Sequence record: MZ892903.1
Length of the DNA stretch: 64,000 nt
Direction: 5' to 3' (one strand)
DNA from: Escherichia phage ELT1
Positions 11,326 to 12,889 of the stretch are shown piece by piece (the stretch's first letter is position 1; each line of letters starts with the position of its first letter). The notes under the pieces were generated by a model that saw only the letters and a list, made by a program, of their open reading frames with translations, was not told the origin of the DNA and made no database searches. A program made the position numbers and the translations under genes.

Positions 11326-11454
11326 TTGTGAAAAAATTTTAAAAAGTTTTGGGGAATTCTAGGGCAGGGAGGGGAAATCAAAGGATAGGATAATATATTA
11401 TAAAGGGTAGAAACTAAATGATGCCTAGAGAGGTCCAGAAAGGCCTAGATACCA

Positions 11455-11482
11455 AAAAGCCCCAACCTTTCGGTCGGGGCTA
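11455..11482 (-). terminator. rho-independent terminator (minus strand)
   Basis: Minus strand reads GCCCC-GACCGAAAGGTT-GGGGC followed by TTTTTGG. Confidence 0.5.
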
Positions 11483-11531
11483 AGCCTTGCGGCAACCTTG
11501 TCGGGGTTCCACCTGCTAAGGCAAGTGTTTG

Positions 11532-11623
11532 TACGAAACGCCGGGATTCGAACCCGGTTATTAAGTAGTTGACGCTACTCAATATTTTTAAAAGGCCATA
11601 TCTCGACCATATCCGAACGTTCC
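11532..11623 (-). ncRNA. tRNA-like structured RNA (possible T4 species-1/2 stable RNA counterpart or tRNA remnant)
   Basis: Perfect T-arm CCGGG-TTCGAAT-CCCGG, 7-bp acceptor pairing CGGAACG/CGTTTCG, variable-arm hairpin GTAG-CGTCAA-CTAC; no convincing D or anticodon stem. Confidence 0.35.
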
Positions 11624-11787
11624 GTCAAAAACGCTACTCGGCTTACGGCAAAGATATTTCCTCGAATCGATAATTCGGTGCGCCGTTTCTGCTGTGATAG
11701 TAAAGAATCAGAACACAGTAAAACTGTGGGAGAAACTATACTCCAGGGAACATCAGTCCGACGACTTACCGGTAGCGACCCGGTTTC

Positions 11788-12138
11788 TTAATATTCTTTT
11801 AAAGCATCAACCTGTTCACGACGTTTACGCCATAAATCAATTGCTTCATACGCGGATTCAGCATTTCGAATTAGCCGGCATTTATGTAAAGACTTATGAT
11901 TTTGATATTGTGTAGATAACGGAATTGTATCTAAAAGGTCTTTACGATCAAAATATTCGTAACCATCTAAACCAAATGAACGATTTTTGAGAAATTGCCA
12001 ATGACCATATTCGTTTTCGACATAAACATAATCTGCATGCTGATAAAGCAAATTAATTACACGTTCAGAAATAACAGTATCATTATGATTAAAATAGAAT
12101 GTTAAATCATGAACTACTAAATAAACATTACCTTTCAT
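11788..12138 (-). CDS. hypothetical protein
   Basis: ORF 11788..12189; better RBS (GAGGA) before internal Met at 12138. Confidence 0.4.
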   Translation of the reverse strand: MKGNVYLVVHDLTFYFNHNDTVISERVINLLYQHADYVYVENEYGHWQFLKNRSFGLDGYEYFDRKDLLDTIPLSTQYQNHKSLHKCRLIRNAESAYEAIDLWRKRREQVDALKEY

Positions 12139-12217: not shown

Positions 12218-12889
12218 TTACACTATAGAGGCAATTAAATTATTTACAATATCTTCTTTATAAACTTCAGCATAATGAAGTTCATATATTTCCCATCCTA
12301 ATGATTTTATAATATCATGGCGTTCTTTATAATAAGGGGCCAAAATCTTTTTCTTAGGATTGGAGTAATGTTGGTTTCCATTAACTTCAATAATAATCTT
12401 TTTATCTATTAAAGCAATATCCGCGCAATACGCTCGGTTTTTAACCGGTTGGTATTCTTCAATAAATGAAATTCCGTTTTCTATTAATTTAGATTTCAAA
12501 AATTCACAAGGCACAGATTTAAATTTTGTATTTTTCTTCCAAGGATGTTTATCGGGGTTTTCATTCAACCATTTTTTCCGAGCATTAGATATTTTTATTC
12601 TAGATTCCTCAGAGTGTTCTCTACCTAATGAAGCGGCTGACCATTTTTGTCTAGTCTCTTCCGAAATTACTACAGGAACACCAGTCTTTTTAGATACAAC
12701 ATACTGGTTTAAATTACCTGAAGCTATACGTGCTTTATTCATTGCTGCAATGGCTGATTTAGAACTTTCTTTATACAATTCCAATTTAGGGTTGGATTTA
12801 CACCATCTAGTGTGGTTAGCCATCCATCCTTTAGGTTTATTAGAAATATCAAATTCCATATTACAATGTTTACAAATTCTCATTACCAA
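12218..12889 (-). CDS. putative freestanding homing endonuclease: N-terminal Zn-finger-like, NUMOD3 motifs, C-terminal Vsr/DUF559-like (PD-(D/E)xK) domain
   Basis: 223 aa; CKHC...HTRWC; NUMOD3-like LGREHSEESRIKISNARKKW; C-terminus ...YCADIALIDKKIIIEVNGNQHY...ERHDIIKSLGWEIYEL; no GIY-YIG motif although it sits where T4 has segB. Confidence 0.55.
   Translation of the reverse strand: MVMRICKHCNMEFDISNKPKGWMANHTRWCKSNPKLELYKESSKSAIAAMNKARIASGNLNQYVVSKKTGVPVVISEETRQKWSAASLGREHSEESRIKISNARKKWLNENPDKHPWKKNTKFKSVPCEFLKSKLIENGISFIEEYQPVKNRAYCADIALIDKKIIIEVNGNQHYSNPKKKILAPYYKERHDIIKSLGWEIYELHYAEVYKEDIVNNLIASIV

What the first reader, a model, noticed from the sequence alone, without database searches (positions are those of the whole stretch)
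11450..11790. tRNA-like RNA element with perfect T-arm but no anticodon arm, followed by a strong terminator
In an otherwise ORF-free 480-bp stretch downstream of the tRNA/endonuclease block, the minus strand encodes a perfect T-arm (CCGGG-TTCGAAT-CCCGG), a 7-bp acceptor-like helix and a variable-arm hairpin, but no recognisable D or anticodon stem. It is followed by a terminator (GCCCC...GGGGC UUUUU). This could correspond to the small stable species-1/2 RNAs T4 makes from this region, a degenerate tRNA, or a tRNA-mimic regulatory RNA.
Basis: partly seen in the sequence, partly recalled or inferred. Interest (0 to 1): 0.55.

Follow-up and report, generated by a model that had tools for sequence, protein, structure and literature searches.

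The report
T4 species 1 and 2 RNAs
The interval holds this T2/T4-type phage's copies of two small stable RNAs known since the 1970s (rnaD and the tRNA-shaped rnaC); the genes are ordinary for such a phage, but what they do is still unknown.

Summary
On the minus strand, 11791-11453 holds rnaD (species 2 RNA, 11791-11676), a 6-nt spacer, rnaC (species 1 RNA, 11669-11533; 1 nt different from T4), a hairpin trailer and a strong intrinsic terminator (11481-11458).

Two refinements. The interval holds two separate RNAs, not one. The conserved acceptor stem of rnaC is CGAUUCG/CGUUUCG (two central U.U mismatches, discriminator U). It is not the thermodynamically stronger GAAACG/CGUUUC pairing, whose 5' strand lies inside rnaD.

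Thirty-one distinct homologues from several T4-like genera support a four-arm, tRNA-like fold:
- acceptor stem;
- a 70-nt long arm in place of the D and anticodon arms;
- a 10-bp extra arm;
- a T arm.

The two free loops (UUGACG and CGUCAA) are exact complements in 31/31 sequences. Two lineages carry different compensatory changes, which indicates a kissing-loop contact. I found no mention of it in the searchable literature.

The literature held here gives no function. My best inference is a tRNA mimic matured by host tRNA enzymes that acts through its shape (protein binding or decoy). It is probably neither a decoder nor an antisense RNA.

The parts
11676..11791 (-). rnaD (species 2 RNA) homologue, 116 nt. 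It has a 5' hairpin ACCGG-GUCGCUA-CCGGU (11784-11768), a closing helix GUCGUCG / CGGCG(C)AC, and a variable distal domain. It ends in CACCG where T4 has CACCA.
   Evidence: Aligns with annotated rnaD of T4, RB3 and Aplg8. Consensus structure has 23 pairs, 11 with compensatory changes and 96.6% of cells paired, against 30-49% when the partners are slid. The first 4 nt overlap the end and stop codon of the upstream ORF.
11670..11675 (-). 6-nt spacer AAUUAU between rnaD and rnaC. The same or a similar 5-6-nt A/U-rich spacer lies between a tRNA 3' end and rnaC in other genera (identical AAUUAU in Moon and SonariX).
11533..11669 (-). rnaC (species 1 RNA) gene, 137 nt encoded. It is a tRNA-like four-arm RNA: acceptor 5' strand 11669-11663, long arm 11662-11593, linker 11592-11585, extra arm 11584-11559, T arm 11557-11541, acceptor 3' strand 11540-11534, discriminator U 11533.
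   Evidence: One difference from T4 species 1 RNA as annotated in X03016. CM hit of 160.8 bits, E=3.5e-37. In the RNAalifold and pair counts, 32 of 52 pairs carry compensatory changes and 94.5% of cells are paired, against 36-48% when slid.
11623..11628 (-). UUGACG in the apical loop of the rnaC long arm; one partner of the proposed 6-bp loop-loop (kissing) contact.
   Evidence: Exact reverse complement of 11574-11569. Perfect in 31/31 distinct homologues, with two different compensatory variants.
11569..11574 (-). CGUCAA, the whole 6-nt loop of the rnaC extra arm; the other partner of the loop-loop contact.
11482..11532 (-). 3' trailer ACAAACACUUGCC... with small hairpins. It is conserved in T4, and also in JS98, which lacks rnaC.
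11454..11481 (-). Intrinsic terminator of the tRNA/stable-RNA operon: 10-bp stem with 7 G-C pairs, GAAA loop, U5.
   Evidence: Annotated 'pot. terminator' in X03016 and 'terminator' in Aplg8.
11684..11689 (-). GAAACG inside the 3' part of rnaD. It is the alternative (non-conserved) partner for the rnaC 3' acceptor strand in the unprocessed precursor.
   Evidence: The precursor fold prefers it (-57.4 against -52.5 kcal/mol). It is present only where rnaD precedes rnaC (9 of 28 distinct homologues). It also overlaps rnaD's own closing helix.

Best explanation
The interval is the 3' end of the phage's tRNA operon. It carries the genes for the two T4-type small stable RNAs, rnaD (species 2) and rnaC (species 1), followed by the operon's intrinsic terminator.

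Shown here:
- The genes are homologous to the annotated T4 genes.
- rnaC has a conserved tRNA-like fold. A 7-position acceptor stem (CGAUUCG/CGUUUCG, discriminator U) adjoins a 5-bp T arm, which is the arrangement of a tRNA acceptor/T minihelix. A 70-nt irregular long arm stands where the D and anticodon arms would be. A 10-bp extra arm stands where a class II variable arm would be.
- The apical loops of the long arm and the extra arm are exact 6-nt complements that co-vary.
- rnaC and rnaD are independent modules. rnaC sits in an ordinary tRNA slot in other genera.

Inferred:
- rnaC is cut out of the polycistronic transcript like a tRNA, with RNase P at C1 and 3' trimming to U73.
- It carries a 3' CCA that is added post-transcriptionally in T4-type phages and encoded in Marfavirus-type phages.
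- Its two lower arms are locked by a kissing-loop contact.

Function is not known. Almost every conserved nucleotide is engaged in intramolecular pairing and no conserved single-stranded seed or anticodon loop exists. The mechanism I think most likely (about 35%) is therefore shape-based: a stable tRNA mimic that occupies or titrates a tRNA-binding factor. That factor could be a host tRNA-directed defence or toxin enzyme, or a phage or host tRNA-processing enzyme. I consider decoding or antisense regulation less likely.
For: Identity:
- blastn hits 808 phage records. The features under the match are rnaC and rnaD in Aplg8 and RB3.
- Annotated loci were examined in RB3, Aplg8, T4 and X03016.
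- The window's rnaC has 1 mismatch in 137 nt to T4 species 1 RNA.

Operon context:
- Nine tRNA genes lie upstream on the same strand.
- No late-promoter TATAAATA occurs on that strand between rnaC and 14458.
- A strong terminator follows.
- The SegB paper states that T4 transcription passes through the tRNA cluster and terminates after the species I gene (PMC2330249).

Structure:
- RNAalifold gives a four-arm fold.
- On 20 sequences, 32 of 52 pairs show compensatory change, 0 of 500 shuffles reach the observed values, and slid controls give 36-48% paired against 94.5%.
- The acceptor co-varies: CGAUUCG/CGUUUCG, CGGUUCG/CGUUCCG, and CAGUCCG or CGGUCCG/CGGACUG.
- In Moon, SonariX, Melville and the Karamvirus phages examined (VPA32, Entb_43), rnaC lies 5-6 nt after a tRNA 3' CCA and 6-12 nt before tRNA-Gly.
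- The loop-loop complement holds in 31/31 distinct sequences, as UUGACG/CGUCAA (22), UUGGCG/CGCCAA (6) and UUGAUG/CAUCAA (3).
- Length stays at 136-139 nt even where the long-arm sequence is replaced.

3' end:
- X03016 annotates only 137 encoded nt. The 140-nt size of the RNA is from my memory of the 1975 sequencing paper.
- Marfavirus-type copies encode U-CCA.

Expression in T4: northern blot and RNA-seq class RNAC and RNAD as late RNAs of unknown function (PMC9697503); the 2010 review also gives the function as unknown (PMC3014915).

Hint of host-related function: a convergent SNP arose in rnaD in all lines of a T4-like phage evolved on a semi-permissive host (PMC12685909).
Against: - No transcript data exist for this particular phage.
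- The RNase P, CCA-addition and modification steps are inferred from architecture and from old T4 literature that I could not retrieve.
- The three GenBank annotations of T4 rnaC differ by 1-2 nt at each end, so the exact mature ends are uncertain. A 140-nt RNA could equally end in the encoded ACA.
- One Enterobacter-phage lineage has UGCAUGC instead of a T-loop motif. Canonical T-loop recognition is therefore not universally required.
- The decoy or protein-binding function has no direct support. From memory of the old genetics, T4 deletions of the region grow on laboratory strains.
- The kissing contact may be intermolecular rather than intramolecular.
Confidence: 0.85

Rival explanations
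1. cis-acting operon furniture. rnaD, rnaC and the trailer hairpins exist mainly to protect the 3' end of the polycistronic tRNA transcript from exonucleases and to order its processing. On this view the stable RNAs are long-lived by-products with no trans function.
For: - They sit at the 3' end of the operon directly before the terminator in Tequatrovirus.
- The precursor can form an alternative helix between rnaD (GAAACG) and the rnaC 3' strand, about 5 kcal/mol better than the native acceptor, which could gate processing.
- rnaD's 3' end imitates a tRNA 3' end plus the usual AAUUAU spacer.
Against: - In Moon, SonariX, Melville, the Karamvirus phages examined and phiR1-RT, rnaC is internal to the tRNA cluster or not adjacent to a terminator, yet it keeps its sequence and fold.
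- A 45-nt nearly invariant core and a co-varying tertiary contact are more constraint than a protective hairpin needs.
- rnaD-like modules occur alone in Vequintavirinae and Phapecoctavirus.
Confidence: 0.15
2. Trans-acting base-pairing sRNA. rnaC or rnaD regulates host or phage mRNAs by antisense pairing.
For: - They are abundant, stable, non-coding late RNAs (PMC9697503).
- An adaptive SNP in rnaD arose in an evolution experiment (PMC12685909).
- Reviews list them as candidate regulatory RNAs (PMC3014915).
Against: - In rnaC the only invariant loop sequences pair with each other. The remaining unpaired stretches (linker, internal loops) vary between lineages, so no conserved seed is left.
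- blastn of rnaC against 5,426 E. coli genomes found nothing. That search is only sensitive to long matches.
- The tRNA-like ends are not typical of Hfq-type sRNAs.
Confidence: 0.1
3. Decaying tRNA pseudogene: a class II tRNA gene that lost its D and anticodon arms and is drifting.
For: - It has a perfect T arm, an acceptor helix, an extra arm in the variable-arm position and a position in a tRNA cluster.
- ARAGORN calls a 95-nt 'tRNA-Met' on the SonariX copy, and that record and vB_Ecl_id4496 annotate one at the same place.
- There is a weak Rfam tRNA-Sec hit.
Against: - The sequence is 97-100% conserved within Tequatrovirus while the neighbouring rnaD core varies.
- Compensatory changes occur in every helix, including the non-tRNA long arm.
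- Length is constant across three unrelated long-arm sequence types.
- The RNA is expressed and stable in T4 (PMC9697503).
- An origin from a class II tRNA remains plausible, but the gene is not decaying.
Confidence: 0.03
4. Small protein-coding genes, as many GenBank records annotate ('hypothetical protein' over this interval).
For: - Mechanical ORFs exist here: 11445-11582 (-, 45 aa, TTG), 11569-11673 (+, 34 aa), 11678-11791 (+, 37 aa) and 11694-11915 (+, 73 aa).
- 'Hypothetical protein' features lie under the match in many records.
Against: - The ORFs use TTG or GTG starts.
- Single-nucleotide indels occur between homologues (136-139 nt).
- The substitution pattern is base-pair compensatory, not codon-wise.
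- The T4 products were sequenced as RNAs (X03016 annotation).
Confidence: 0.02

Closest known systems
Bacteriophage T4 rnaC (species 1 RNA; band C)
   Same: Same gene: 136 of 137 nt identical. It has the same neighbours (rnaD upstream, trailer and terminator downstream) and the same strand and operon as the tRNA genes.
   Different: In this T2-like genome a 116-aa ORF (phrog_3355) separates tRNA-Arg from rnaD, whereas the two abut in T4. Nothing differs in rnaC itself.
Bacteriophage T4 rnaD (species 2 RNA; band D)
   Same: The 5' 50 nt and 3' 25 nt are conserved, with the same 5' hairpin and closing helix.
   Different: The central domain is replaced: two small hairpins, the second (CACAGUUUUACUGUG) being the one shared with a Phapecoctavirus copy, stand in for T4's nested hairpin. 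The 3' end is CACCG rather than CACCA, and the 5' end overlaps an ORF stop codon.
Class II (long variable arm) tRNAs
   Same: 7-position acceptor stem continuous with a 5-bp T arm and a UUCGAAU loop; a hairpin immediately 5' of the T arm; a discriminator followed by a CCA-type end; tRNA-like spacing inside tRNA clusters.
   Different: There is no D arm, no 7-nt anticodon loop and no anticodon. A 70-nt, roughly 24-bp irregular arm takes their place. The extra arm is 10 bp. The acceptor has two U.U mismatches. tRNA models do not detect the element.
tmRNA tRNA-like domain
   Same: An acceptor/T-arm minihelix made from the two ends of the RNA, with the anticodon arm replaced by a long helix leading to further structure.
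   Different: rnaC is 137 nt, with no reading frame, no pseudoknot ring and no G3.U70. Neither ARAGORN nor Rfam detects a tmRNA.
   Same: Two hairpin loops of one small phage RNA are mutually complementary, and the complementarity is kept by covariation between relatives.
   Different: In pRNA the pairing is 4 bp and demonstrably intermolecular (ring on the portal). There is no sequence or Rfam similarity. T4 packaging is not known to need RNA. In rnaC the contact could be intramolecular.
Bacterial YrlA / Y-RNA tRNA-like modules and other viral tRNA mimics (plant-virus TLS, MHV68 vtRNAs)
   Same: Non-decoding RNAs that imitate tRNA well enough to be handled by tRNA-processing or modifying enzymes.
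   Different: In YrlA the tRNA-like part is internal and the termini form the Ro-binding stem. Plant TLSs are 3' ends of genomes with a pseudoknotted acceptor. No Rfam match was found to any of them.

Membership tests
T4 rnaC / species 1 RNA | Sequence homology to the T4 species 1 RNA gene | tested here: met
   1 of 137 nt different from the X03016 'species 1 RNA'. CM built from 16 homologues scores 160.8 bits.
T4 rnaC / species 1 RNA | Location in the tRNA operon, downstream of rnaD and upstream of the operon terminator | tested here: met
T4 rnaC / species 1 RNA | Accumulates as a stable RNA of about 140 nt in infected cells | not testable with these tools
   Shown for T4 by northern blot and RNA-seq (PMC9697503). 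No data exist for this phage.
T4 rnaD / species 2 RNA | Homology of the 5' and 3' conserved blocks, and position immediately 5' of rnaC | tested here: met
   The central domain differs from T4's.
Canonical tRNA (Rfam RF00005 / ARAGORN) | Cloverleaf with D arm, and anticodon arm with a 7-nt loop | tested here: not met
   ARAGORN makes no call here. RF00005 gives no hit even at E<=10. The long-arm loop is 6-8 nt and the extra-arm loop is 6 nt.
Canonical tRNA (Rfam RF00005 / ARAGORN) | Acceptor stem stacked on a T arm with a T-loop motif, then a discriminator and CCA | tested here: inconclusive
   The acceptor and T arm are present and co-vary. CCA is encoded only in Marfavirus-type copies; the window encodes ACA. 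One lineage lacks the T-loop motif.
tmRNA | tRNA-like domain plus tag reading frame and pseudoknots | tested here: not met
   ARAGORN's tmRNA search and the Rfam clan give no hit. The RNA is only 137 nt.
Intrinsic (Rho-independent) terminator | G+C-rich hairpin followed by a U tract | tested here: met
   10-bp stem with 7 G-C pairs, GAAA loop and T5 at 11481-11454.
phi29-type pRNA | Rfam or sequence similarity; role in a packaging motor; intermolecular loop pairing | tested here: not met
   No Rfam hit. Only the feature 'two mutually complementary loops' is shared. Oligomerisation is not testable here.
Any Rfam 15 family | Score at or above a family's gathering threshold | tested here: not met
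   Only the 9 tRNAs pass in the window. Nothing passes on 11450-11791, so rnaC and rnaD have no Rfam family in this release.

The most novel reading that the evidence does not exclude
rnaC is a tRNA-shaped RNA whose two non-acceptor arms are joined by a conserved 6-bp loop-loop contact. The resulting particle, matured and CCA-tailed by host tRNA enzymes, would act as a decoy or inhibitor for a tRNA-directed host factor, for example an anti-phage tRNA nuclease or a 3'-end-modifying toxin. This would give a function to an RNA that has lacked one for 50 years and add a non-decoding member to the phage tRNA-based counter-defence repertoire.
Probability: 0.2. Interest if true: 0.7.

Novelty: already known. 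Interest (0 to 1): 0.3.

Why it matters
As a finding in this window it is routine. Tequatroviruses in general carry rnaC (678 of the 808 matching phage records cover at least 80% of the query interval), and both RNAs were sequenced from T4 in the 1970s-80s.

It matters only because the function of rnaC and rnaD is still an open question, stated as unknown in 2010, 2022 and 2025 papers. The locus also sits in a region now known to be an arena of tRNA-centred phage-host conflict (SegB-driven amplification of tRNA-Tyr against Septu, PMC13096335).

The comparative model obtained here turns 'unknown small RNA' into a set of precise mutational tests. It covers the true acceptor stem, a long arm of conserved length, co-varying kissing loops, modular spread across genera, and the absence of any conserved single-stranded seed. 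It also argues for a shape-based rather than an antisense mechanism.

There is an annotation issue as well. Neither RNA has an Rfam family, and many GenBank records mislabel the interval as hypothetical proteins; a few annotate a tRNA over rnaC (tRNA-Met in SonariX and vB_Ecl_id4496, tRNA-Lys in G4507).

Tried and rejected
- Rfam at gathering threshold and at E<=10: no family. The tRNA-Sec (17 bits), isrK and anti-hemB hits are chance-level.
- ARAGORN: nothing in the interval.
- blastn of rnaC against all complete E. coli genomes: no match. This only excludes long similarity or complementarity, not short seeds.
- Reader-type acceptor helix GAAACG/CGUUUC: thermodynamically preferred in the precursor. 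I rejected it as the functional helix for three reasons. It is absent in 19 of 28 distinct homologues. It overlaps rnaD's own co-varying closing helix. It does not match the T4 RNA ends annotated in X03016.
- Hand-tested pairings inside the long arm were rejected on reading the alignments. A CCGU/ACGG pseudoknot was dropped because the two sides vary independently (L007, L009, L012). A loop-E (AGUA/GAA) motif was dropped because the register does not fit. An anticodon-like 7-nt loop does not exist, since the loops are 6 or 8 nt (GAC or UCA readings).
- Metagenome scan with a gapped pattern: 17 loci, of which 5 are chance matches in GC-rich coding DNA. The rest are T4-like contigs.
- Genome-collection scan: one Clostridia MAG locus that the CM does not recognise. 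There is no evidence for rnaC in bacterial genomes.
- One IMG/VR hit to an 18-nt core pattern (L024) is an unrelated GC-rich sequence.
- Literature searches for 'species 1 RNA', 'species I ribonucleic acid', 'p2Sp1', and rnaC with tRNA-like or T4-like: no functional or structural study is held. The 1975 sequence paper and the Miller 2003 review are not in the library.
- Late-promoter search: no TATAAATA directly upstream. I do not propose a separate late transcript for this phage.
Full report
**What is in the sequence.** Read on the minus strand, the interval follows a cluster of nine tRNA genes at 13609-12157 (Gln, Leu, Gly, Pro, Ser, Thr, Met, Asn, Arg) and two ORFs. From 11791 downwards it contains:
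- a 116-nt block beginning UUAAGAAACCGGGUCGCUACCGG;
- a 6-nt spacer AAUUAU;
- a 137-nt block running CGAUUCGAGG...CCGGGUUCGAAUCCCGGCGUUUCGU;
- a 51-nt trailer;
- the hairpin AGCCCCGACC-GAAA-GGUUGGGGCU followed by U5.

ARAGORN and Rfam do not recognise any RNA family here. The only Rfam hit on the element is a tRNA-Sec match at 17 bits, E=2.6. The 137-nt block folds far better than shuffled controls (z = -4.1).

**Identity.**
- blastn against 50,697 phage records finds the interval in 808 records, almost all Tequatrovirus and relatives. The best matches are GEP001 (99.3%) and T2 (98.0%).
- Where the match is properly annotated, the features are rnaD ('species 2 RNA') and rnaC ('species 1 RNA'). 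This holds for RB3, Aplg8, T4 NC_000866 and the original T4 tRNA-region record X03016.
- X03016 annotates species 2 as AUGAGAAACC...GGCGCACCA (120 nt) and species 1 as CGAUUCGAGG...CGGCGUUUCGU (137 nt).
- The window's rnaC (11669-11533) differs from that sequence at one position.
- The window is therefore a T2-like phage, and the finding is a rediscovery of the two small stable RNAs of the T4 tRNA operon.

The papers I could read say both RNAs are made late and that their function is unknown (PMC3014915, 2010; PMC9697503, 2022, with northern blot). A 2025 evolution study found the same SNP in rnaD in all lines of a T4-like phage adapting to a semi-permissive E. coli (PMC12685909).

**Which acceptor helix is real.** Two 5' strands can pair with the 3' strand CGUUUCG (11540-11534). 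One is GAAACG at 11689-11684, giving six Watson-Crick pairs. The other is CGAUUCG at 11669-11663, giving five pairs with two central U.U mismatches. In a model precursor the first is about 5 kcal/mol better. The comparative data nevertheless support the second.
- In Citrobacter phage Moon, Enterobacter phage SonariX, Salmonella phage Melville, Klebsiella phage VPA32 and others, the rnaC homologue lies 5-6 nt after the CCA end of tRNA-Met or tRNA-Trp and 6-12 nt before tRNA-Gly. No rnaD lies upstream.
- Among 28 distinct homologues, a 6-nt upstream complement exists only in the 9 that follow rnaD.
- The adjacent strand co-varies: CGAUUCG/CGUUUCG, CGGUUCG/CGUUCCG, and fully Watson-Crick CAGUCCG/CGGACUG in Yersinia phage phiR1-RT.
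- GAAACG also overlaps rnaD's own closing helix.
- The conserved helix matches the RNA ends annotated by Broida and Abelson.

**Architecture of rnaC.** RNAalifold on 16 homologues gives a four-arm structure, which I refined with a covariance-model alignment of 20. It consists of:
- an acceptor stem (7 positions);
- with no linker, a 70-nt irregular long arm of about 24 bp, interrupted by internal loops and a 3-nt 5' bulge;
- an 8-nt A/U-rich linker;
- a 10-bp extra arm with a 6-nt loop;
- one nucleotide;
- a 5-bp T arm;
- the acceptor 3' strand and discriminator U.

Of 52 pairs, 32 show changes on both sides. 94.5% of cells are standard pairs, against 36-48% when the partners are slid, and no shuffle out of 500 reaches the observed values. 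Part of that alignment was fitted to the model. The MAFFT-only alignment gives the same picture, with 23 of 48 pairs compensatory. Three unrelated sequence versions of the distal long arm exist: the T4/Moon/phiR1-RT type, the Melville/VPA32 type and the Marfavirus (PWKp16) type. Total length still stays at 136-139 nt.

**A loop-loop contact.**
- The apical loop of the long arm contains UUGACG (11628-11623). The loop of the extra arm is CGUCAA (11574-11569). These are exact reverse complements, and the nucleotides flanking them cannot pair.
- phiR1-RT-type copies have UUGAUG with CAUCAA. Marfavirus-type copies have UUGGCG with CGCCAA. Melville-type copies, whose arm is otherwise different, keep UUGACG with CGUCAA.
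- Across 31 distinct sequences from the phage database, IMG/VR and metagenomes, the complement is perfect in every case (22, 6 and 3 sequences for the three variants). No one-sided change occurs.
- I read this as a 6-bp kissing interaction.
- I cannot decide with these tools whether it closes one molecule or joins molecules. The conserved bulge, the internal loops and the flexible linker would allow the long arm to fold back, which favours closure.
- I found no description of this contact in the literature I could search.

**rnaD.** Fourteen homologues give a 5' hairpin (ACCGG-GUCGCUA-CCGGU, co-varying) and a closing helix GUCGUCG/CGGCG(C)AC that brings the 3' end back to nt 27-33. Two short helices and a variable distal domain complete the fold.
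- rnaD is not tRNA-like.
- The window's distal domain (...CUCCCACAGUUUUACUGUGUUCUG...) differs from T4's and resembles the copy in a Phapecoctavirus.
- rnaD and rnaC are separate modules. JS98 has rnaD joined directly to the trailer and terminator with no rnaC. Moon and the others have rnaC without rnaD. rnaD-like elements follow a tRNA gene in a Vequintavirinae phage (W70) and lie inside the tRNA cluster of a Phapecoctavirus, just upstream of tRNA-Thr.

**How it most likely works.**
- Shown: both are conserved, structured non-coding genes transcribed with the tRNA operon. No late promoter lies directly upstream and a terminator lies downstream.
- Inferred: because rnaC occupies a tRNA slot and presents an acceptor/T minihelix, it should be released by RNase P at C1 and trimmed at the 3' side.
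- X03016 annotates 137 encoded nt while the RNA is reported as 140 nt (from memory). Marfavirus-type copies encode U-CCA where T4-type copies encode U-ACA. This suggests a CCA end added by the host enzyme.
- rnaC has no anticodon loop. Its invariant loop residues pair with each other, and the other unpaired segments vary. It therefore offers neither a codon-reading surface nor an antisense seed.
- I therefore favour, at about 35%, a shape-based role: a stable tRNA mimic that binds or titrates a tRNA-directed protein. This would fit the current picture of T-even tRNA loci as counter-defence loci (PMC13096335).
- The rivals are set out with their tests in the rival-explanations section. They are an operon-end processing or stability element (about 15%), an antisense sRNA (about 10%), a decaying tRNA (about 3%) and small ORFs (about 2%).

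**Comparison and verdict.** The element is a member of the T4 rnaC and rnaD families by homology, synteny and structure. It is not a canonical tRNA, a tmRNA or any Rfam family. It works like a tRNA only as far as the acceptor/T half. Novelty: already known. Interest is low to moderate (0.3): the gene is routine for this phage group, but its function is a 50-year-old gap, and the comparative model, in particular the co-varying kissing loops, makes it directly testable.

Noticed in passing
window 12221-12889 (- strand): The ORF between tRNA-Asn and tRNA-Arg is where T4 carries the GIY-YIG endonuclease gene segB. Here it is a different, DUF559/RAP (Vsr-like) plus NUMOD3-type endonuclease-like protein. 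Pfam gives E=4e-5 to 1e-3, with only DUF559 above its curated cut-off (RAP and NUMOD3 fall below theirs); PHROG hits include 'homing endonuclease'. It probably corresponds to one of the two unassigned ORFs reported for T2L.
   Followed up: partly
window 11788-12138 (- strand): A 116-aa ORF of unknown function (phrog_3355, E=3e-53), with its own GAGG ribosome-binding site, is inserted between tRNA-Arg and rnaD. Its stop codon TAA abuts the GAAACC that begins the conserved part of rnaD. The 5' end of rnaD therefore cannot be made by tRNA-Arg 3' processing as in T4.
   Followed up: partly
window 11700-11745 (- strand); L029 about 1245-1290: The central domain of this phage's rnaD (CUCCCACAGUUUUACUGUGUUCUG) resembles a Phapecoctavirus copy rather than T4's. 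This suggests module exchange between unrelated tRNA-rich phages.
   Followed up: partly
L030 1193-1290 (Escherichia phage W70, Vequintavirinae); L029 1195-1315 (Phapecoctavirus 536P1): rnaD-like elements occur outside Straboviridae, with a co-varying 5' hairpin, conserved AAGUCGUC...CUGA and a 3' GGCGCA. The W70 copy lies directly after tRNA-Met; the 536P1 copy lies inside the tRNA cluster, just upstream of tRNA-Thr.
   Followed up: partly
L005 1554-1648; L028 659-753; record NC_054919 (G4507): Automated annotation mislabels part of rnaC as a 95-nt 'tRNA-Met' (ARAGORN reproduces this on SonariX) or as 'tRNA-Lys'. Many other records place 'hypothetical protein' CDS features over rnaC and rnaD.
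   Followed up: yes
L008 5961-6098, L019, L021, L035, L054 (Enterobacter-phage lineage): In this lineage the rnaC T loop is UGCAUGC instead of UUCGAAU, while the T stem and all other arms are kept. The canonical T-loop motif is therefore dispensable there.
   Followed up: no
L032, L036, L037, L038, L042, L055 (Marfavirus-type): These rnaC copies encode U-CCA at the 3' end, whereas T4-type copies encode U-ACA and phiR1-RT-type copies U-UCA. The motif N-C-A-A after the discriminator is conserved throughout.
   Followed up: partly
L006 1497-1700 (JS98): JS98 has rnaD fused directly to the trailer and terminator with a clean absence of rnaC. rnaC therefore behaves as an insertable and deletable cassette.
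   Followed up: yes
window 11768-11784 (+ strand): The terminator scan flags the complement of the rnaD 5' hairpin as a plus-strand terminator-like site. This is almost certainly an artefact of the minus-strand RNA hairpin.
   Followed up: no
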